The notes under the pieces are model-generated. The model was not told the origin of the DNA, did no database searches, and worked only from the letters and a program-made list of their open reading frames with translations. This document shows, piece by piece, positions 1,201 through 27,021 of a stretch of DNA of 32,000 bases. Numbering within the stretch: position 1 is the first letter of the stretch; every line of letters begins with the position of its first letter. The position numbers were made by a program, and so were the translations under genes. The stretch is from NCBI RefSeq assembly GCF_017876815.1, contig NZ_JAGIOS010000001.1:3060001-3092000 (forward strand), written 5' to 3'. This stretch comes from Sinorhizobium meliloti (GTDB lineage Bacteria; Pseudomonadota; Alphaproteobacteria; Rhizobiales; Rhizobiaceae).

Positions 1201-1374
1201 TAAGGCCTGTTGAGATTCATCTGGTGTTTATGACGGCTGCTGCGAGATCGGTGATGGCGTTTCTCCTGGCCCTCATCTCTGTGCTTGTCACAGAGATCCA
1301 GCAGCGCCGCGTCTGCGGCGCGGGAAATGTTTTTTCAGGCCAAGGACCTGGCCTGGCTGGATCCCTGTGACCAG
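1201..1374 (+). repeat. Repeat family A, copy A1, left part (interrupted by an IS at 1375)
   Basis: Begins with the terminal inverted repeat TAAGGCCTGTTGAGATTC. It contains hairpins ATCTCTGTG-N5-CACAGAGAT and GCGCCGC-GTCT-GCGGCGC, plus the left arm ATCCCTGTG and loop ACCAG of the last hairpin. Near-identical to 7707-7813 and 17641-17749. Confidence 0.9.
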
Positions 1375-2639
1375 TGTTTAGCCCGGGGACATGGCGGACA
1401 CCTGTTCGGATACATCACTGACGGATTGCTTGTTGGTCAAGTTGATTGTTGCGATGTGATGGGCACCGAAGAAAGCGCCATAGTGGCCGTCGCGGTCGAG
1501 CGGGCGGATGGCGAGGCGTTCTCCGCAGAAAGCTTTGGGAACTTTCCATAGCCGGCCTTTGAAGCTGACATAGGCTTTGGTGGCGGAAACCTTGCGCACG
1601 ATCTCGCCCTCGTCATAGACGGGCTCGGGCAGGCGATCCGGCATGGCGCGCGGACTGGGGTGGTAGCGGCTGGCCGGCACGTCATGATCGAGTGCCCCAT
1701 GCGGGCGCTCGAAATTGTAAAGCTCGCGCCAGGCATCGAAGGCGCGCTGAACGGCAGCAAGATCCCTGAAACGGTCAAAGGCGAACACCTCGGCCTTGAG
1801 TGTGCGATGGAAGCGTTCATTCTTGCCACGGCTCTGCGGATGGTAGGGGCGACTGTGCAGTAGGGCGACGCCGAGCTTCAGAAGCCATACGCCGAGGCCG
1901 GTCCAGCCCTCGCCTGACGGATCGCCCCATGGCGCGCCATTATCCACGAACATGGCGTCCGGCAGCCCGTAGCGCCGGAATGTCCGCTCCAGATGGCCGC
2001 GTACGGTCGCGCCTCGCTGATCGGCGCAGGCCATGAGACAAGGCACGAAGCGGGAATGGTCATCGATCACCGTCAACGGGTGGCAGAGCGTGGCGTCGGC
2101 CAATTGCACCCAGCCCTTGAAATCCATTTGCCAGAGCTGGTTCGGCGCCTCCTTCTCGAAGCGCTGCAACGCCGGCGCGCCGCCCGGCGGTGCTACGATC
2201 CGATCATGGCGCTTGAGGATGGCATGAACGGTCGAAACCGCCGGCGGGTGGGTTCCCTGCCGTTCCAGATAGCCCACAATTTTGCGCGCCCCCCATGCCG
2301 GATGCGCATCGCGCACCCCAAGCACCTCGGTCTCTACCGCTTCGTTGCAACGCATCGGACTTATATGCGGGCGCCGTGAGCGATCCGCCAACTCGCGGTC
2401 GCCGGCTTCCCACCGCGCCAGCCATTTATAACCGATATCCGGGCTGATCCCGAACCGCCGGCACAATTCCCGCCGGTTCACACCCTCCTCAAGCGCAAGT
2501 CGCACAAACTCCCGCCGCTCTCCCATCGTCGATACCTCTCGCCACGGCATGGAATACCCCCTTCGAAGCCAAATCCATGCCAGTATGACGTGTCAGCCAT
2601 CTCCCCGAACACCCGTCAGTTATGTCCCCGGGCTAAACA
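1375..2639 (-). mobile_element. Complete IS481-family insertion sequence (1265 bp)
   Basis: Perfect 18-bp terminal inverted repeats TGTTTAGCCCGGGGACAT (1375-1392 and the reverse complement of 2622-2639). A 5-bp direct duplication ACCAG flanks it (1370-1374 and 2640-2644). A single DDE transposase ORF fills the element and its stop codon lies inside the left IR. Confidence 0.93.
1378..2550 (-). CDS. IS481-family DDE transposase (integrase/rve core)
   Basis: N-terminal HTH (CRRFGISPDIGYKWLARW). rve catalytic signature: WQMDFKG, VIDDHSRF, DNGAPW, SRPYHPQSRGKNERFHRTLK. An alternative start is ATG at 2526 (MGERREF), which has a GAGAGG Shine-Dalgarno sequence. Confidence 0.92.
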   Translation of the reverse strand: MPWREVSTMGERREFVRLALEEGVNRRELCRRFGISPDIGYKWLARWEAGDRELADRSRRPHISPMRCNEAVETEVLGVRDAHPAWGARKIVGYLERQGTHPPAVSTVHAILKRHDRIVAPPGGAPALQRFEKEAPNQLWQMDFKGWVQLADATLCHPLTVIDDHSRFVPCLMACADQRGATVRGHLERTFRRYGLPDAMFVDNGAPWGDPSGEGWTGLGVWLLKLGVALLHSRPYHPQSRGKNERFHRTLKAEVFAFDRFRDLAAVQRAFDAWRELYNFERPHGALDHDVPASRYHPSPRAMPDRLPEPVYDEGEIVRKVSATKAYVSFKGRLWKVPKAFCGERLAIRPLDRDGHYGAFFGAHHIATINLTNKQSVSDVSEQVSAMSPG

Positions 2640-2705
2640 ACCAGCACAGGGATGAGGAGATCAAACAAGCCGCCCCGGGGGTATCCCGAATCTCAACGGA
2701 CCTTA
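2640..2705 (+). repeat. Repeat family A, copy A1, right part (after the IS)
   Basis: ACCAG (duplicated loop) + CACAGGGATGAGGAGATCAAACAAGCC...GAATCTCAACGGACCTTA. This aligns with the right ends of A2 (7809-7875) and A3 (17745-17802). Confidence 0.9.
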
Positions 2706-4496
2706 GTTGAACGACGGCGGTGCGCTGAGATCGGGGGCCGGATTGTTCTGTTGAGGCGCCGTATTCGGTTGGGCCGGCTGCTGGCCACCCCCGTCGAGCG
2801 GACTGCCGCCCGGCAGCTGCAGGCCGCCGGGAAGGCCGAGGCCGCCGCCATTGTCGGGCAGGGTAAGACCGCCGCCGCCGGTGCCGAAGCCCGGGACCTC
2901 GATCTTGATCGTCGACGGATCGACCGCCGCGCCGCTGCCTTTATAATGCAGGACCATCTGCGGGAACATGAGGGTCAGCGCAACCATGACGACCTGTATG
3001 CAGACGAAAGGCACGGCGCCCCAATAGATCTGTCCGGTCGTCACGGGCTGCATCATCTTGCCGGTCACCCTGTCCAGATAGGGCACCCTGGCTGCCACGG
3101 AACGCAGATAGAAGAGCGCGAAGCCGAAGGGCGGATGCATGAAGCTCGTCTGCATGTTGATGCCGAGCAGCACGCCGAACCAGATCAGATCGATGCCCAG
3201 CTTGTCGGCCGCCGGCGCGAGCAGGGGGACGATGATGAAGGCGAGCTCGAAGAAATCGAGGAAGAAGGCCAGGAAGAAGACGAGCACGTTGACGGCGATC
3301 AGGAAGCCGATTTCGCCGCCCGGCAAGGCCGTCAGCAGATGCTCCACCCAGAGATGCCCGTTGACGCCGTAGAAGGTGAGCGAAAAGACGCGGGCGCCGA
3401 TCAGGATGAACAGAACGAAGGCGGAGAGCCGCGTCGTGGAGGCGAGTGCGGCGCGGACCACTTCCATGTTGAGGCGGCCCTTGCCGGCCGCCATGACGAG
3501 CGCGCCGACGGCTCCCATGGCGCCGCCTTCGGTGGGTGTGGCGATGCCCAGGAAAATCGTCCCGAGAACGAGGAAAATCAGGGCCAGTGGCGGGATCAGA
3601 ACGATGATCACCTGTTGCGCCAGCCGCGAAAGCGCGTTGATCTTGAGCGTCCTGTCGGCGAGGGCGGCCAGGTAGATGAATATGATGCCCACCGTCGCGC
3701 CGAGGATGTCCGCGTTTTCGCCCTGCGTCGGCGAAAGATAGACGTGGGCCGCATAGGCGATCGCGCAGGCGACCAGGAGCGCGATCGCAAGCGAGGTGAC
3801 GCCGGACCCGAGCGTGCGCGCTTCCAGAGGCAGCGCCGGCATGGAGTGCCGCTTCACGAAGGTCATCAGCAGGATGTAGCCCATATAGAGCCCGGTCAGA
3901 ACGAGGCCGGGGATGAGGGCGCCGGCATACATGTCGCCGACCGAGCGGCCGAGCTGGTCGGCAAGAACGATCAGCACCAGCGACGGCGGGATGATCTGCG
4001 CAAGCGTGCCGGAGGCGGCGATGACGCCGGAGGCGATGCGCCGGTCGTAGCCGTAGCGCAGCATGATCGGCAGCGAGATCAGGCCCATCGCGATGACGGA
4101 AGCTGCGACGACGCCGGTGGTCGCCGCAAGCAGCGCGCCGACGAAGATGACCGCGTAGGCAAGTCCGCCGCGCACGGGACCGAAGAGCTGGCCGATCGTG
4201 TCGAGAAGGTCCTCGGCCATGCCCGACCGTTCGAGCACTATGCCCATGAAGGTGAAGAAGGGGATGGCGAGAAGCGTGTCGTTCGACATGACCCCCCAGA
4301 ACCGTTCCGGCAGTGCGTTCAGCAGTGGCCAGGAAAGATTGATGGAATCGGACAAAGGCGCGAGTTCGACGCCGATGATGAAGAACAGGAGACCGTTGGC
4401 GGCGAGCGAGAAGGCGACCGGGTATCCGAGCAGAAGGAATACGATCAGCGACACGAACATGATCGGCGCCAGGTTTTCAGCGACGAACTCGATCAT
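2703..4496 (-). CDS. TRAP transporter large permease subunit (DctM-like, COG4664-type) with a Gly/Pro/Gln-rich C-terminal tail
   Basis: 597-aa polytopic membrane protein with typical DctM segments. Its ATG overlaps the upstream small-permease stop (ATGA). The C-terminal ~90 aa are low complexity. Confidence 0.9.
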   Translation of the reverse strand: MIEFVAENLAPIMFVSLIVFLLLGYPVAFSLAANGLLFFIIGVELAPLSDSINLSWPLLNALPERFWGVMSNDTLLAIPFFTFMGIVLERSGMAEDLLDTIGQLFGPVRGGLAYAVIFVGALLAATTGVVAASVIAMGLISLPIMLRYGYDRRIASGVIAASGTLAQIIPPSLVLIVLADQLGRSVGDMYAGALIPGLVLTGLYMGYILLMTFVKRHSMPALPLEARTLGSGVTSLAIALLVACAIAYAAHVYLSPTQGENADILGATVGIIFIYLAALADRTLKINALSRLAQQVIIVLIPPLALIFLVLGTIFLGIATPTEGGAMGAVGALVMAAGKGRLNMEVVRAALASTTRLSAFVLFILIGARVFSLTFYGVNGHLWVEHLLTALPGGEIGFLIAVNVLVFFLAFFLDFFELAFIIVPLLAPAADKLGIDLIWFGVLLGINMQTSFMHPPFGFALFYLRSVAARVPYLDRVTGKMMQPVTTGQIYWGAVPFVCIQVVMVALTLMFPQMVLHYKGSGAAVDPSTIKIEVPGFGTGGGGLTLPDNGGGLGLPGGLQLPGGSPLDGGGQQPAQPNTAPQQNNPAPDLSAPPSFN

Positions 4497-7671: not shown

Positions 7672-7875
7672 GCGGTCTGGGAAACATCTCTGAGGCCTGC
7701 AATCTCTCCTCACCCTCATCTCTGTGCTTGTTACAGAGATCCAGCAGCGCCGCGTCTGCGGCGCGGAGAACGTTCTTTCAGCCCAAGGACTTGGTCTGGC
7801 TGGATCCCTGTGACGAGCACAGGGATGAGGAGATCAAACAAGCCGCGGGGGTATTCCGGATCTTACAGGCCCTAG
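7672..7875 (+). repeat. Repeat family A, copy A2 (intact core, degenerate or partly deleted left terminus)
   Basis: The core 7700-7850 is near-identical to A3 and includes all four hairpins, with the uninterrupted loop ATCCCTGTG-ACGAG-CACAGGGAT. The right end is GGATCTTACAGGCCCTA. Confidence 0.85.
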
Positions 7876-14300: not shown

Positions 14301-14398
14301 TAGAGCGGGATGAGGAGAAAAGTGTGCGGTTTTCCGTCCGCATCCCGCCCTAACTTCCTAGAGTCGATCACGTTCATGATGTCAGGTCGACCCGACCT
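14301..14398 (-). repeat. Repeat family B, copy B2 (inverted relative to B3, not associated with a family A element)
   Basis: The reverse complement aligns with 17485-17581. Shared features: hairpin AGGTCG-N3-CGACCT, CATGAACGTGATCG, and the long hairpin AGCGGGATG...CATCCCGC(T/C). Confidence 0.8.
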
Positions 14399-14433
14399 GA
14401 AATCATCGTGATTCAGCGACTATTGGTGCTGTG

Positions 14434-15186
14434 TCAGTCGCTCGAAGTGGAAGCCGGGGTTTCTCCACCGCCTGAGCCGGTATCCTGGCCGCCGCCGGAG
14501 CCGCTGTCCTGACCGCCGCCGGAGCCTTCGCCACCGCCGGAGCCGCTATCCTGGCCGCCGCCGGAGCCAGTGTCCTGACCGCCGCCGGAGCCTTCGCCGC
14601 CGCCGGAGCCGCTATCCTGGCCACCACCGGAGCCGCTGTCCTGACCGCCGCCAGAGCCGGTATCCTGACCGCCACCTGAGCCGCTGTCCTGACCGCCGCC
14701 GGAGCCTTCGCCGCCGCCGGAGCCGCTATCCTGGCCACCACCGGAGCCGGTGTCCTGACCGCCGCCAGAGCCGGTATCCTGACCGCCACCTGAGCCGCTG
14801 TCCTGACCGCCGCCGGAGCCTTCGCCGCCGCCGGAGCCGCTATCCTGGCCACCACCGGAGCCGGTGTCCTGACCGCCGCCAGAGCCGGTATCCTGACCGC
14901 CACCAGAGCCGGTATCCTGGCCGCCGCCGGAGCCTTCGCCGCCGCCGGAGCCGCTATCCTGACCGCCGCTGGAACCGGTATCCTGGCCGCCACCTGAGCC
15001 AGTCTCCTGACTTCCGCCTGGCGCGCTGCCGGCGTCGGCAACGACAAGGACGTCACCATGAGGACCGGCGAGCGCTGTACTCTGACGCAGGCCGTCATCG
15101 AACGACGCTAGTGAGGCAAATGGCGTGGCAACGACATAGGCGAGACCAAGCAATGAGCCGATGATAGTTTTTCCTGTTCTACGCAT
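14434..15186 (-). CDS. Secreted glycine-rich tandem-repeat protein, (GSGGGQD[ST])n with GGGEGS punctuation
   Basis: Signal peptide MRRTGKTIIGSLLGLAYVVATPFASLA. GGAAGGAAG RBS. About 190 aa consist only of G/S/Q/D/T/E repeats. This frame and strand were chosen because they are the only ones with a signal peptide and an RBS. Confidence 0.6.
   Translation of the reverse strand: MRRTGKTIIGSLLGLAYVVATPFASLASFDDGLRQSTALAGPHGDVLVVADAGSAPGGSQETGSGGGQDTGSSGGQDSGSGGGEGSGGGQDTGSGGGQDTGSGGGQDTGSGGGQDSGSGGGEGSGGGQDSGSGGGQDTGSGGGQDTGSGGGQDSGSGGGEGSGGGQDSGSGGGQDTGSGGGQDSGSGGGQDSGSGGGEGSGGGQDTGSGGGQDSGSGGGEGSGGGQDSGSGGGQDTGSGGGETPASTSSD
14461..15010 (-). repeat. Coding tandem repeat array: 24-nt units nested in 114-nt higher-order units
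   Basis: The marker GGAGCCTTCGCC recurs at 14521, 14587, 14701, 14815 and 14929 (spacings 66, 114, 114, 114 nt). The three 114-nt units are nearly identical. Confidence 0.9.
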
Positions 15187-17052: not shown

Positions 17053-17484
17053 GGAAGAAGTCCTTTTCCTTCAGTCTGTCTTTGCCGCAACCCTGCGCTT
17101 CAATATCACGCATCGGTTGCTTTAGGTAGTGTGTCCGCGCCCCCGGGAGGAAGCGAACGTGTCGTCTTCAGCGAAATGCGCTGAAAGGCGTCGAGTGGTC
17201 ACGATATCGGGGAAAAGACGTCTACGATGCCGCTTGCGGCAGTCCCGGCGTCAAGCCAGGCTCAAAGCGAAAGTCCAGTCTCCGGGATTGAAAACGCCCG
17301 AACAGAGATAGGATTGGCAGTATTCCGCGAAAAAGGCAAGGGGGAGTTCTTGCGACCTCGCACCTGCGGCGATGCCTTATGCCGAAGCGCCGGCGTGACC
17401 TCTCGGTGCCATCTGCCGCAGGACGAATGTCGTGGATTGCTTCGTTTGACCACATTTTCGTCCCGGCACTGGATCACGATGTTT

Positions 17485-17581
17485 TTAGGTCGGATCGACC
17501 TAGAAACATGAACGTGATCGATTCCAATAGTTTAAGCGGGATGCGGGCGGAAAATCGCACACACTTTTCCTCATCCCGCTC
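17485..17581 (+). repeat. Repeat family B, copy B3, directly abutting family A copy A3
   Basis: AGGTCGGATCGACCT hairpin, CATGAACGTGATCG, and the long hairpin AGCGGGATG-N29-CATCCCGCT. Homologous to the reverse complement of 14301-14398. Confidence 0.8.
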
Positions 17582-17802
17582 TAAGGTCTGTTGAGATTGA
17601 TCCTAGGAAACCTATCGGAGGACTGCAATCTCTCCTCCTCCTCATCTCTGTGCTCGTCACAGAGATCCAGCAGCGCCGCGTCTGCGGCGCGGGAAGAGTT
17701 CATTCAGCCCAAGGACTTGGTCTGGCTGGATCCCTGTGACGAGCACAGGGATGAGGAGATCGAACAAGCCGTGGCAGGTATCCCGAATCTCAACAGGCCT
17801 TA
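17582..17802 (+). repeat. Repeat family A, copy A3 (best preserved, 221 bp)
   Basis: Terminal inverted repeats TAAGGTCTGTTGAGATTG / GAATCTCAACAGGCCTTA (16 of 18 positions). Four internal hairpins: ATCTCTGTG-N5-CACAGAGAT; GCGCCGC-GTCT-GCGGCGC; CAGCCCAAG-GA-CTTGG(TCT)GGCTG; ATCCCTGTG-ACGAG-CACAGGGAT. Confidence 0.9.
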
Positions 17803-18770: not shown

Positions 18771-19364
18771 TTAATCCTGATTACCTTTGAGGCCGCCATC
18801 TTGGCTGCCTTTGCCGTTGTCCTGGTTGCCGTTGTCCTGGCTGCCCTTGCCGTTGTCCTGGCTGCCTTTGCCGTTATCCTGGCTGCCCTTGCCATTGTCC
18901 TGGCTGCCCTTGCCGTTGTCCTGGTTGCCCTTGCCATGGTCTTGGTTACCCTTGCCGGTGTCTTGGCCACCGCCACCGCCGGGATCGCCGCCGCCGCCGC
19001 CGCCGCCACCGCCGCCACCGCCGCCACCGCCGCCGCCGCCACCGCCGCCGGGATTACCACCGCCGCCGTCATCGCCGTTCAGGTTGCGAGGACCGCTGTC
19101 GGTGGAGGTCGTGGAAAACGAATTTCCGATGGCCGCCGTGGAGAGGGGCGGGCATTGCTCTATTTGCCCGGCCGTGAGGATATCCGCTCTGTTCTGAGCC
19201 ATGCAGCATGCTTCGTAATTGGCGTCCGTCAGAGGGCTGCACTGCTCAGCCACGAGCATGGGGCCCGTAAGGTTCTGGGCGTGCGCGGGAATCGTTGTCG
19301 AAGTTGAAAAACCGACCATCAGAGCCAGGCCGGTGCTCGTAAGAAATACATCCAGGGTTTTCAT
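18771..19364 (-). CDS. Secreted protein with a Cys-containing N-domain, a poly-Gly tract and GKG[SN]QDN heptad repeats
   Basis: Signal peptide MKTLDVFLTSTGLALMVGFSTSTTIPAHA. GGAGA RBS. Four Cys in the first 45 mature residues. A Gly-dominated stretch (about 35 Gly, broken only by N, P, D and P) leads into GGGGGQDTG, followed by (GKGSQDN)n. Confidence 0.6.
   Translation of the reverse strand: MKTLDVFLTSTGLALMVGFSTSTTIPAHAQNLTGPMLVAEQCSPLTDANYEACCMAQNRADILTAGQIEQCPPLSTAAIGNSFSTTSTDSGPRNLNGDDGGGGNPGGGGGGGGGGGGGGGGGGGGGDPGGGGGQDTGKGNQDHGKGNQDNGKGSQDNGKGSQDNGKGSQDNGKGSQDNGNQDNGKGSQDGGLKGNQD
18801..19070 (-). repeat. Coding 21-nt tandem repeats (18801-18965) followed by a (GCC/ACC)n triplet tract (18966-19070)
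   Basis: Units such as GGCTGCCCTTGCCGTTGTCCT repeat about 8 times. An almost pure CCG/CCA triplet run encoding poly-Gly on the minus strand follows. Confidence 0.9.
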
Positions 19365-26466: not shown

Positions 26467-27021
26467 GTGTTGCCTTTCAAGCGTTTCATCATGAAGTCTG
26501 CCGCCATCTTCCTGGCCGCCGCCGGCTTCCTTTCTGCCTGTACCGTGGTCGTCGACGAACCGCGCCCCGGTCCGGGGCCGATCCGCCCGCCAGGCCCGCA
26601 AATGTGCACGATGGAATTCGCGCCGGTCTGCGGCGAGCGCGGCAATCGCATGCGGACCTTCCCCAATGCCTGCCAGGCACGCGCCGACGGCTTCCGTGTC
26701 GTTCATCGCGGCGAATGCCGCCCGGCATCCCGTCCGCCGGAAGAACAGGCCTGCACGCGCGAGTTTTCGCCGGTGTGCGGTCAGCGCGGCCCGAGAAGGC
26801 AGACCTTCCCCAATTCATGCGTGGCGCGCGCCGAGGGTTTTCGCGTCGTCGCACCCGGCGAATGCCGCCGCGAGGATGATCGCCCGCAGCAGCCGCAATT
26901 CTGCACCCGGGAATTCGCGCCGGTCTGCGGCGAGCGCAACGGACGATCAAGAACATTCCCGAATGCCTGCGAGGCACGGGCGGACGGGTTCCGCGTGGCT
27001 CATCCCGGGGAATGCCGTTAA
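26467..27021 (+). CDS. Lipoprotein with three tandem Kazal-like serine-protease-inhibitor domains
   Basis: Lipobox FLSAC. Three ~50-aa repeats of the form C-T-[MR]-E-F-x-P-V-C-G-x(8)-F-P-N-x-C-x-A-R-A-x-G-F-R-V-x(5)-C-R. GTG 26467 has a GGGGGAG RBS; an alternative ATG at 26491 lacks an RBS. Confidence 0.8.
   Translation: MLPFKRFIMKSAAIFLAAAGFLSACTVVVDEPRPGPGPIRPPGPQMCTMEFAPVCGERGNRMRTFPNACQARADGFRVVHRGECRPASRPPEEQACTREFSPVCGQRGPRRQTFPNSCVARAEGFRVVAPGECRREDDRPQQPQFCTREFAPVCGERNGRSRTFPNACEARADGFRVAHPGECR

What the first reader, a model, noticed from the sequence alone, without database searches (positions are those of the whole stretch)
1361..2653. IS481-family element inserted exactly in the loop of a repeat-element hairpin, with the empty site visible in the same window
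The two intact family A copies carry the hairpin ATCCCTGTG-ACGAG-CACAGGGAT (about 17741-17763 and 7804-7826). In copy A1 the left arm plus loop (ATCCCTGTG ACCAG, 1361-1374) and the loop plus right arm (ACCAG CACAGGGAT, 2640-2653) are separated by a 1265-bp IS with perfect 18-bp IRs. The 5-nt target duplication is therefore precisely the hairpin loop. Loop-specific insertion into palindromic repeats is known for a few IS elements in enterobacteria (IS1397 into BIME/PU loops), and I do not know of it being described for IS481-family elements. The perfect IRs and intact ORF suggest a recent, possibly active copy.
Basis: partly seen in the sequence, partly recalled or inferred. Interest (0 to 1): 0.6.

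Follow-up and report, generated by a model that had tools for sequence, protein, structure and literature searches.

The report
ISRm20 targets REP hairpin loops
A jumping gene (ISRm20, IS481 family) of Sinorhizobium meliloti sits exactly in the loop of a small repeated DNA hairpin; every other copy examined, and its relatives in other Alphaproteobacteria, do the same, a targeting habit known for other insertion-sequence families but which I could not find described for this one.

Summary
Window 1375-2639 is a 1265-bp IS481-family element with perfect 18-bp inverted repeats and an intact 390-aa transposase. It is annotated elsewhere as ISRm20 of Sinorhizobium meliloti. It is flanked by a 5-bp duplication (ACCAG) that is the whole loop of a 9-bp-stem hairpin.

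At least 11 distinct ISRm20 loci in S. meliloti are all in this loop. Allelic empty sites exist. One loop carries the IS in opposite orientations in two strains, and one repeat array carries two copies.

Relatives down to about 57-60% transposase identity sit in REP loops of Rhodopseudomonas, Bradyrhizobium-group and Neorhizobium genomes and various MAGs. Three informative relatives at 50% identity or less do not.

The duplication length follows the loop length: 4, 5 or 6 bp. In one case the same transposase duplicated a 6-nt loop, and the empty orthologous site confirms that loop.

REP-loop targeting is known for IS3, IS110 and IS4 family elements. I found no description for the IS481 family or for CGTC REPs. 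Verdict: real, targeted transposition; a new member of a known kind; moderate interest.

The parts
1234..1360 (+). It includes the first REP hairpin, CCTC-ATCTCTGTG-CTTGT-CACAGAGAT-CCA, at about 1271-1300.
   Evidence: Repeat family D4; alignment to 7677-7848 and 17603-17774; hairpin match at 1277.
1361..1369 (+). 5' arm (ATCCCTGTG) of the target REP hairpin.
1370..1374 (+). Left copy of the 5-bp target-site duplication, ACCAG (the hairpin loop).
1375..2639 (-). ISRm20, an IS481-family insertion sequence of 1265 bp. The strand given is that of the transposase.
   Evidence: 100% identical copies occur in other S. meliloti replicons. In CP090106 the gene is annotated 'IS481-like element ISRm20 family transposase'. 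The protein equals UniProt Q925X4.
1375..1392 (+). Terminal inverted repeat TGTTTAGCCCGGGGACAT, at the end distal to the transposase start (IRR).
   Evidence: 18/18 match with the other end.
1378..2550 (-). Transposase ORF, 390 aa: N-terminal HTH domains plus an rve (DDE) core. Candidate catalytic residues are D143, D203 and E245.
   Evidence: The DDE residues were assigned by motif inspection and are an inference.
2622..2639 (-). Terminal inverted repeat at the end proximal to the transposase start (IRL).
2640..2644 (+). Right copy of the target-site duplication, ACCAG.
2645..2653 (+). 3' arm (CACAGGGAT) of the target REP hairpin.
2654..2706 (+). Right end of the interrupted family A copy: the GAGG tag plus a conserved tail.
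   Evidence: Repeat families D7 and D10; alignment.
7677..7848 (+). Intact paralogous REP dimer. Its uninterrupted target-type hairpin, ATCCCTGTG-ACGAG-CACAGGGAT, is at 7804-7826.
17603..17774 (+). Intact paralogous REP dimer. Its uninterrupted target-type hairpin is at 17730-17752.

Best explanation
Window 1375-2639 is a copy of ISRm20, an IS481-family (DDE transposase) insertion sequence of Sinorhizobium meliloti. It arrived by transposition into the loop of a CGTC/CCTC-tagged REP hairpin, CCTC-ATCCCTGTG-CTCGT-CACAGGGAT-CCA, here seen in the reverse orientation. The hairpin lies in an inverted REP dimer in the gap between the convergent TRAP-transporter genes dctM and dctP.

Target choice belongs to the transposase lineage, not to this one copy. 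ISRm20 and its relatives down to about 57-60% protein identity, most of them sharing the IR TGTTTAGCCCGGGGACAT, place their two ends at the two stem-loop boundaries of such palindromes. The whole loop is therefore duplicated, whether it has 4, 5 or 6 nt. The element can sit in either orientation.

Inferred steps: the two 3'-OH ends of the IS attack the phosphodiester at the 5' edge of the loop on each strand, and gap repair then duplicates the loop. The transposase reads the palindrome arms, or an extruded hairpin, rather than a fixed stagger. Which of these two it reads is not settled.

Because the target is intergenic and multicopy, insertion is nearly harmless and many landing sites are available.
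For: Shown:
1. Anatomy and family.
2. Identity with ISRm20.
3. At least 11 distinct S. meliloti loci are all in the loop, each with the loop duplicated: the window site, L001, L002/4, L003/8/102/130, L005/L080, L078, L079, L081/L129, L090, L101.
4. Allelic empty sites carry one uninterrupted hairpin: L077, L094, L096.
5. Independent hits are documented. The same pSymB loop carries the IS in opposite orientations in two strains. Two copies sit in adjacent units of one REP array (L102).
6. A scan of one genome per species with the 18-bp IR gave 66 loci in many Alphaproteobacteria. For 49 of 69 outward flanks, the predicted intact hairpin (up to 2 mismatches) occurs uninterrupted elsewhere in only 440 kb of fetched DNA.
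7. Of 24 complete elements, 18 have a 5-bp TSD directly flanked by a perfect 9-bp inverted repeat. One has a 4-bp TSD in what reads as a 4-nt loop with imperfect arms.
8. Stems differ between hosts, and within one MAG, while the insertion position is constant.
9. TSD length tracks loop length. It is 4 bp in L075 and L084 and 5 bp in most. It is 6 bp (CTCCGT) in L107, made by a transposase that elsewhere makes 5-bp TSDs. The uninterrupted orthologous site L138 shows the 6-nt loop.
10. Relatives at 50% identity or less (Cupriavidus, Mesorhizobium, Acidovorax) have 5-6-bp TSDs with no flanking hairpin.
11. The target matches the published definition of CGTC REPs (PMC3733652).
Against: - No transposition was observed. 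Everything is inferred from end products.
- The 6-nt-loop case is a single locus. The 4-nt cases come from different, more distant IS species, so TSD length could be a property of each transposase rather than of the target.
- Whether the hairpin is read as structure or as duplex sequence is open. All 11 S. meliloti targets have the CCCTGTG stem and none has the sister CTCTGTG stem, which hints at sequence reading, though only weakly.
- As single strands, the REP dimers prefer one long hairpin in which the 'loop' is paired.
- About 20 of 69 flanks from other species could not be matched to an intact hairpin in the limited DNA fetched.
- The occupied window allele has loop ACCAG, while empty alleles have ACGAG.
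Confidence: 0.85

Rival explanations
1. Insertion is random. Only copies that landed in harmless intergenic repeats survived purifying selection, which creates an apparent preference.
For: The sites are intergenic, often between convergent genes, where insertions are least harmful.
Against: Selection can explain 'intergenic' but not single-nucleotide precision. Every copy duplicates exactly the loop nucleotides of one hairpin type. REP loops are a minute fraction of intergenic DNA (estimate). The same precision recurs in unrelated genera with different stems.
Confidence: 0.03
2. The IS spreads among repeat copies by homologous recombination or gene conversion, using the flanking repeat as homology, and not by targeted transposition.
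For: - Family A copies share about 170 bp of 90% identity.
- Hybrid flanks show that IS copies do recombine (L034, L048, L070, L071, L112, L113, L115).
- The concerted ACGAG/ACCAG difference between L003 and L008 could be a co-conversion tract.
Against: - Many occupied sites share only the 9-bp stems plus a 3-4-bp tag with each other. Examples are the window site versus L008 or L002, and single REPs in Bradyrhizobium-group genomes.
- The same loop is occupied in both orientations.
- TSDs differ between sites and equal the local loop, including a 6-nt loop.
Confidence: 0.04
3. The hairpin arms belong to the mobile element, which would then have longer inverted repeats. In that case there is no target specificity at all.
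For: Arm plus IR forms a 62-nt imperfect inverted repeat (I3).
Against: - Empty allelic sites contain one intact hairpin and nothing else.
- The same IS in one genome is flanked by different stems (ATGCCCGGC, ATGCGCGGG, ATGGCCGGG).
- The IR is identical across genera whose REP stems differ.
Confidence: 0.01
4. Targeting is real but purely sequence-specific on ordinary duplex DNA. A symmetric transpososome with a fixed stagger is centred on the dyad, and the equality of TSD and loop is a coincidence of sizes.
For: - Most DDE transposases have palindromic target consensus sequences (established knowledge).
- Loops are similar across hosts (CTTGT, CTTGA, CTCGT).
- Stems begin AT and end GC-rich.
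- The CTCTGTG sister hairpin is never used.
- Variation of one bp in TSD length is common in the IS3 family (own knowledge).
Against: - The 6-bp TSD in a 6-nt loop was made by a transposase that otherwise makes 5-bp TSDs.
- Relatives make 4-bp TSDs in 4-nt loops.
- Very different stem sequences are tolerated at a constant position.
Confidence: 0.3

Closest known systems
IS1397 and ISKpn1 (IS3 family) inserting into the loops of palindromic units (PU/REP) of enterobacterial BIMEs. The reference is Clement et al. 1999, cited in PMC10433421; the details are from my own knowledge.
   Same: A DDE transposase of the IS3/IS481 superfamily. Insertion is in the loop of a multicopy extragenic palindrome, with a short TSD made of loop nucleotides. 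Specificity resides in the transposase.
   Different: - IS1397 and ISKpn1 have two ORFs with a programmed frameshift; ISRm20 has one ORF.
- The targets are GTAG-type enterobacterial PUs, against CGTC/CCTC-type REPs of Alphaproteobacteria.
- Their TSD is 3-4 bp, against the whole loop (4-6 bp) here.
- Here the trait is shared by a clade spread over several families of Alphaproteobacteria.
ISRm22 (IS4 family) and ISRm19 (IS110 family) of S. meliloti 1021, and ISPsy8 (IS3 family) of Pseudomonas syringae. These are the 'type 1' REP associations of Tobes & Pareja 2006 (PMC1525189).
   Same: 100% of copies lie at one position of a REP. The insertion point is at the palindrome axis for ISRm22 and ISPsy8. 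For ISRm22 and ISRm19 the host species is also the same. Hybrid direct repeats are explained by recombination between copies.
   Different: These are other IS families, and IS110 uses different chemistry. ISRm22 makes 6-bp direct repeats. I could not check whether their REP is this same hairpin, because the figures are not held. ISRm20 is not mentioned in that study.
IS481 of Bordetella, the type element of the family.
   Same: Transposase family (NF033577); a single ORF; IRs beginning TGT; a short TSD with a palindromic character.
   Different: IS481 duplicates a 6-bp NCTAGN sequence (own knowledge), not the loop of a repeated hairpin. Relatives at 50% identity or less examined here also lack hairpin targets.
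IS110-family REP occupants (ISPpu9, ISPpu10, ISPa11, IS621).
   Same: Strict occupancy of REP sequences.
   Different: They use a DEDD recombinase with bridge-RNA-guided target choice, lack classical IRs, and make little or no TSD (PMC11208160, listed). That mechanism is unrelated to a DDE IS481 element.

Membership tests
IS481 family of insertion sequences | Transposase matches the family profile above the curated cut-off. | tested here: met
   NF033577 scores 282.8 bits against a cut-off of 224. The IS3 model scores only 107, below its cut-off of 160. Pfam finds rve, rve_3, LZ_Tnp_IS481 and HTH domains.
IS481 family of insertion sequences | A single long transposase ORF with no programmed frameshift, unlike IS3. 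| tested here: met
   One 390-aa ORF fills 1378-2550 of the 1265-bp element.
IS481 family of insertion sequences | Terminal inverted repeats and a short target-site duplication. | tested here: met
   18/18 IRs beginning TGT; 5-bp TSD.
ISRm20 (named element) | Near-identity to the ISfinder reference sequence. | not testable with these tools
   ISfinder is not available. Indirectly, the protein is identical to sequences that NCBI names 'IS481-like element ISRm20 family transposase' and to UniProt Q925X4.
CGTC-tagged REP (Di Nocera et al. 2013, PMC3733652) | Terminal tag CGTC, or the variants TGTC or CCTC. | tested here: met
   CCTC in S. meliloti; CGTC in Rhodopseudomonas, the Bradyrhizobium group and Neorhizobium.
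CGTC-tagged REP (Di Nocera et al. 2013, PMC3733652) | An 8-9-bp stem beginning with AT, a 4-5-nt loop, and a short unpaired CCA-like tail. | tested here: met
   ATCCCTGTG / CACAGGGAT with loop ACGAG and tail CCA. One variant has a 6-nt loop.
CGTC-tagged REP (Di Nocera et al. 2013, PMC3733652) | Multicopy, extragenic, often in inverted dimers. | tested here: met
   Three dimers lie in the window. The 33-mer has 277 places in 81 plasmid records. Tandem arrays occur in L002 and L003.
'Type 1' REP-associated IS (Tobes & Pareja 2006) | [quoted passage not shown] | tested here: met
   At least 11 of 11 loci; reconstruction.
IS1397/ISKpn1 group | IS3-family organisation (orfA/orfB with a frameshift) and an enterobacterial PU target. 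| tested here: not met
   Single ORF; IS3 model below its cut-off; the target is a CGTC-type REP. It works like this group but is not a member.
RIME1 (Rhizobium-specific intergenic mosaic element, Osteras et al. 1995) | Sequence identity of the repeat to the published RIME1 consensus. | not testable with these tools
   The paper is not held, and no Rfam family matches. The dimer of two palindromes resembles what I recall of RIME1, but that is only a lead.

The most novel reading that the evidence does not exclude
The ISRm20 clade recognises the REP as a structure: an extruded hairpin or cruciform, or at least the two arms independently. It joins its ends at the two stem-loop junctions, so the target, not the enzyme, dictates the length of the duplication (4, 5 or 6 bp). 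That would be a structure-gauged DDE transposition. It would also be the first transposase lineage found specifically tied to the CGTC REP superfamily, which has no known associated transposase.
Probability: 0.25. Interest if true: 0.7.

Novelty: new member of a known kind. Interest (0 to 1): 0.55.

Why it matters
REP sequences are among the most abundant and least understood repeats of bacterial genomes. The CGTC superfamily of Alphaproteobacteria was reported to have no meaningful association with transposases.

A widespread IS481-family clade whose members land only in CGTC-REP loops would do three things:
- It adds a fourth IS family to the known REP targeters.
- It provides a natural series of targets (different stems; loops of 4, 5 and 6 nt) for asking how a DDE transposase reads a palindrome.
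- It explains part of the strain-to-strain variation and the IS-mediated rearrangements at REP sites in rhizobia.

Practically, such an element is a candidate 'safe-harbour' insertion tool for Alphaproteobacteria. Its occupancy pattern could also serve as a strain-typing marker for S. meliloti.

Tried and rejected
1. An Rfam scan of the whole window found no family at gathering score, so the repeat has no curated RNA model.

2. I considered that the IR (ATGTCCCCGGGCTAAACA) mimics a REP half-site (ATGGCCGGGCTTGA), so that the transposase would bind both. I rejected this as evidence. The same CCGGGGACAT motif is present in the IRs of relatives at 50% identity or less that do not target hairpins.

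3. I looked for MITE-like partners of 14 solo IR matches whose inner sequence does not resemble ISRm20. No second IR lies within 3.5 kb, so they are remnants.

4. The left flank of ISEc19 (yagA of E. coli, 49% identity) contains a CCCC-TTT-GGGG palindrome. The right end is truncated, so nothing can be concluded.

5. 'Inverted-loop' flanks (left flank equal to the reverse complement of the right flank, as in L070, L071, L115, L119-121, L133 and L135-137) at first looked like an exotic insertion product. The flanks turn out to be halves of two different REPs. This is what inversion between two oppositely oriented IS copies produces. Some cases are short Logan contigs, where the assembly may also mislead.

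6. On the ACCAG puzzle (see Noticed in passing), an error during gap repair cannot change both TSD copies, so that explanation is rejected. Whole-repeat gene conversion between the two ACCAG sites is also rejected, because their flanks differ beyond about 14 bp.

7. The Osteras 1995 RIME paper could not be read.

8. I did not use the metagenome scan, the structure prediction or the large protein searches. The genome, plasmid and exact-protein look-ups already gave enough independent sites.
Full report
**1. Observation**

The window sequence reads ...GGCTGG ATCCCTGTG ACCAG | TGTTTAGCCCGGGGACAT ... ATGTCCCCGGGCTAAACA | ACCAG CACAGGGAT GAGGAG... The IS occupies 1375-2639 (1265 bp). Its terminal inverted repeats match 18/18, and a 5-bp direct repeat, ACCAG, lies at 1370-1374 and 2640-2644.

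The only long ORF is 1378-2550 on the minus strand, 390 aa. It carries HTH domains and an rve core. It scores 282.8 bits against the NCBIfam IS481-family model (cut-off 224), while the IS3 model stays below its cut-off.

Removing the IS and one ACCAG gives a sequence that aligns over its whole length with the two intact repeat copies at 7677-7848 and 17603-17774. They fold as DNA into a 9-bp stem with a 5-nt loop (-9.2 kcal/mol, z = -4.3).

**2. What the element and the target are**

The IS is 100% identical to copies in S. meliloti pSymB replicons. In CP090106 it is annotated 'IS481-like element ISRm20 family transposase'. The protein equals UniProt Q925X4 and occurs on 159 contigs of the protein collection.

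The repeat fits the published definition of CGTC-tagged REPs. That definition has a tag of CGTC, TGTC or CCTC, an 8-9-bp stem starting with AT, a 4-5-nt loop and a CCA tail. These REPs occur mostly in Alphaproteobacteria, including S. meliloti, and often as inverted dimers (PMC3733652).

TGG-ATCCCTGTG-ACGAG-CACAGGGAT-GAGG. The insertion lies between the convergent genes dctM (2703-4496, minus strand) and dctP, and disrupts no gene.

**3.

Exact-protein look-ups, plasmid BLAST and annotated-region fetches gave at least 11 distinct ISRm20 loci in S. meliloti:

| Locus | Loci fetched |
|---|---|
| dctM/dctP (the window site) | L006, L007, L009, L010, L091, L093, L095, L097, L099, L127, L128 |
| downstream of rpsA | L001 |
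| mazG/hflX | L002, L004, L103, L104 |
| exonuclease / GIY-YIG array | L003, L008, L102, L130 |
| pSymB LysR / xanthine dehydrogenase | L005, L080 |
| dusA / cold-shock | L078 |
| KH46 pSymB | L079 |
| pSymB AhpC locus | L081 (truncated), L129 |
| DUF4440 / DUF924 | L101 |
| old remnant in pSymB of strain 1021 and most other strains | L090 |

Every one lies between ATCCCTGTG and CACAGGGAT, with the loop duplicated.

True allelic empty sites exist for the window locus, in L077, L094 and L096.

Independent events are documented twice:
- L005 and L080 are the same pSymB locus (flanks 98-99% identical over 400 bp on each side) but carry the IS in opposite orientations.
- L102 carries two copies in adjacent units of one tandem REP array.

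Under any plausible number of loops per genome, chance is excluded.

**4. Beyond S. meliloti**

The 18-bp IR was used as an exact pattern against one genome per species. It gave 66 loci: Rhodopseudomonas faecalis and R. palustris, Bradyrhizobium and Xanthobacteraceae MAGs, Aestuariivirga, Rhodobiaceae, Ensifer, Sinorhizobium and others.

Nearly all outward flanks end in tag + stem + 4-5 nt, for example CGTC-ATGGCCGGG-CTTGT | IS | CTTGT-CCCGGCCAT-CCAC. For 49 of 69 flanks, the hairpin predicted by mirroring the arm is found uninterrupted elsewhere in the 440 kb fetched.

Of 24 complete elements:
- 18 have a 5-bp TSD directly flanked by a perfect 9-bp inverted repeat;
- 1 has a 4-bp TSD in what reads as a 4-nt loop with imperfect arms;
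- 4 have flanks from two different REPs, which is what recombination between IS copies produces (Tobes & Pareja noted the same for ISRm22);
- 1 is an internally deleted derivative.

The IS is found in both orientations relative to the REP tag (11:7).

Transposase identity to ISRm20:

| Relative | Identity |
|---|---|
| second Sinorhizobium element | 80% |
| Bradyrhizobium-group elements | 68-72% |
| Neorhizobium galegae (L084; 4-nt loop TCGA, 4-bp TSD) | 61% |
| Rhodobiaceae elements | 57-59% |

Relatives at 47-50% identity (Cupriavidus, Mesorhizobium, Acidovorax) have similar IRs. Their TSDs are 5-6 bp and are not flanked by a hairpin. The trait therefore marks a clade within the family.

**5. 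How it works**

Shown:
- The two IS-target joints lie exactly at the two stem-loop boundaries.
- Either orientation occurs.

The most informative case is L107. The 80% relative, with the exact transposase P0033, makes 5-bp TSDs in 5-nt loops at L114, L116, L117 and L123. In L107 it sits in ATCCCTGTG-CTCCGT-CACAGGGAT with a 6-bp TSD, CTCCGT. The orthologous uninterrupted site in Sinorhizobium sp. K101 (L138) shows that the loop really has six nucleotides. Together with the 4-bp TSDs in 4-nt loops of more distant relatives, this shows that the duplication length follows the loop.

Inferred: the DDE chemistry (3'-OH attack at the 5' edge of the loop on each strand, then gap repair), and positioning by the arms or by an extruded hairpin rather than by a fixed stagger.

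Duplex-sequence reading with some flexibility of stagger is not excluded. The loops are similar across hosts, and the sister hairpin with stem CTCTGTG is never used. That second point is weak, since this hairpin type is only about a quarter of the hairpins I saw. As a single strand, the whole dimer prefers one long hairpin in which the loop is paired. In vivo extrusion of the small hairpin is therefore not a given.

**6. Rivals**

- Survivorship after random insertion cannot explain nucleotide-level precision.
- Spread by recombination between repeats fails because many sites share only about 13 bp beyond the TSD, because both orientations occur at one site, and because TSDs equal the local loop.
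- The idea that the arms belong to the IS fails on the empty sites and on the different stems seen with identical IRs.

**7. An unexplained detail**

The window copy is flanked by ACCAG. The empty alleles have ACGAG, even in strains whose DctM protein is identical, and they differ at three more positions within 30 bp on the inner side of the dimer.

At the exonuclease / GIY-YIG site, L003 has ACGAG on both sides and L008 has ACCAG on both sides. Their flanks are otherwise identical over 400 bp to the left and 127 bp to the right.

Uninterrupted ACCAG hairpins are rare: 1 place against 277 for ACGAG in the plasmid collection. That single place (GR4 pSymB, L083) is a locus that carries ISRm20 in other strains (L081, L129).

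Possible explanations:
- a diverged pre-insertion haplotype at the window site, followed by co-conversion of IS plus TSDs between copies, since the REP arms extend the homology by about 14 bp on each side;
- a strong preference for ACCAG loops;
- retention of donor-derived 5' flaps from a circle junction.

I could not discriminate between these.

**8. Comparison with what is known**

REP sequences are established IS targets:
- IS1397 and ISKpn1 (IS3 family) insert into the loops of enterobacterial PUs.
- ISPsy8 (IS3 family) inserts at a hairpin axis.
- ISPpu9, ISPpu10, ISPa11 and ISRm19 belong to the IS110 family.
- ISRm22 (IS4 family) does so in S. meliloti itself (PMC1525189).

ISRm20 works like IS1397 and ISKpn1 but is not a member of that group. 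It has a single ORF, belongs to the IS481 family, and targets a CGTC-type REP.

The full-text library has no paper containing the word ISRm20. None links the IS481 family to REPs or hairpin loops. The survey of CGTC REPs reported only fortuitous associations with transposases. ISfinder itself could not be read.

**9. Verdict**

It is a new member of a known kind (REP-loop-targeting IS). Two features go beyond the single copy: the trait defines a clade spread across Alphaproteobacteria, and the duplication length follows the loop. Interest is moderate (0.55). It would be higher if structure-gauged joining is confirmed experimentally.

Noticed in passing
window 1370-1374 and 2640-2644; L077, L094, L096, L003, L008, L083: The TSD of the window copy is ACCAG, but allelic empty sites have ACGAG. 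At a second site two strains differ in the same way, on both sides of the IS. Uninterrupted ACCAG hairpins are about 0.4% of this hairpin type in the plasmid collection (1 against 277 places). The single one found is at a locus that carries ISRm20 in other strains.
   Followed up: partly
L107 601-1773 with flanks; L138: An 80%-identical relative of ISRm20 sits in a 6-nt-loop variant of the hairpin with a 6-bp duplication. Elsewhere the same transposase makes 5-bp duplications. The empty orthologous site confirms the 6-nt loop.
   Followed up: yes
L002 769-1700; L003 3391-4140; L102: The REP dimers also occur as tandem arrays of about 227-bp units whose copy number differs between strains. One array carries two ISRm20 copies in neighbouring units.
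   Followed up: partly
L029 3397-4119 (Ensifer sp. USDA 6670): A 723-bp internally deleted, non-autonomous derivative of an ISRm20-like element (IS positions 276-818 missing). Both IRs are kept. Its flanks are irregular: the two sides have different stems and only a 1-bp repeat.
   Followed up: no
L034, L048, L070, L071, L112, L113, L115: These complete copies have flanks that are halves of two different REPs, some in tail-to-tail arrangement. This is the signature of deletions or inversions by recombination between IS copies, so these elements are reshaping genomes at REP sites.
   Followed up: partly
window 14301-14416 and 17469-17583; also about 1180-1215: A second repeat family (about 115 nt, 85% complementary) occurs as an inverted pair 3 kb apart. 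It flanks the region with the Gly-rich repeat gene and directly adjoins family A copies. It is possibly another annotated S. meliloti intergenic repeat (Sm-repeat or RIME type).
   Followed up: no
window 14398-15081 and 18790-19086: Long GC-rich tandem arrays with 18/24-nt and 21/9-nt periods (GCC/GGC-rich). They probably lie inside genes for Gly/Ser/Asp-rich repetitive proteins.
   Followed up: no
window 26605-27019: Three copies of a 118-nt unit spaced 147-150 nt apart (75-77% identity).
   Followed up: no
L086 (E. coli F' / K-12 yagA region): yagA of E. coli K-12 (ISEc19) is a 49%-identical relative with a related left IR (TGTACGGTCCGGGGACAT). Its right end is truncated. Its left flank ends in a CCCC-TTT-GGGG palindrome next to a second similar palindrome.
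   Followed up: no
L014, L033, L040, L046, L051 and L050, L063, L067, L076: In Rhodopseudomonas faecalis, five or more contigs share the same 32-nt flank next to the IS, and one flank is shared with R. palustris JSC-3b. The REP there is part of a longer conserved repeat unit.
   Followed up: no
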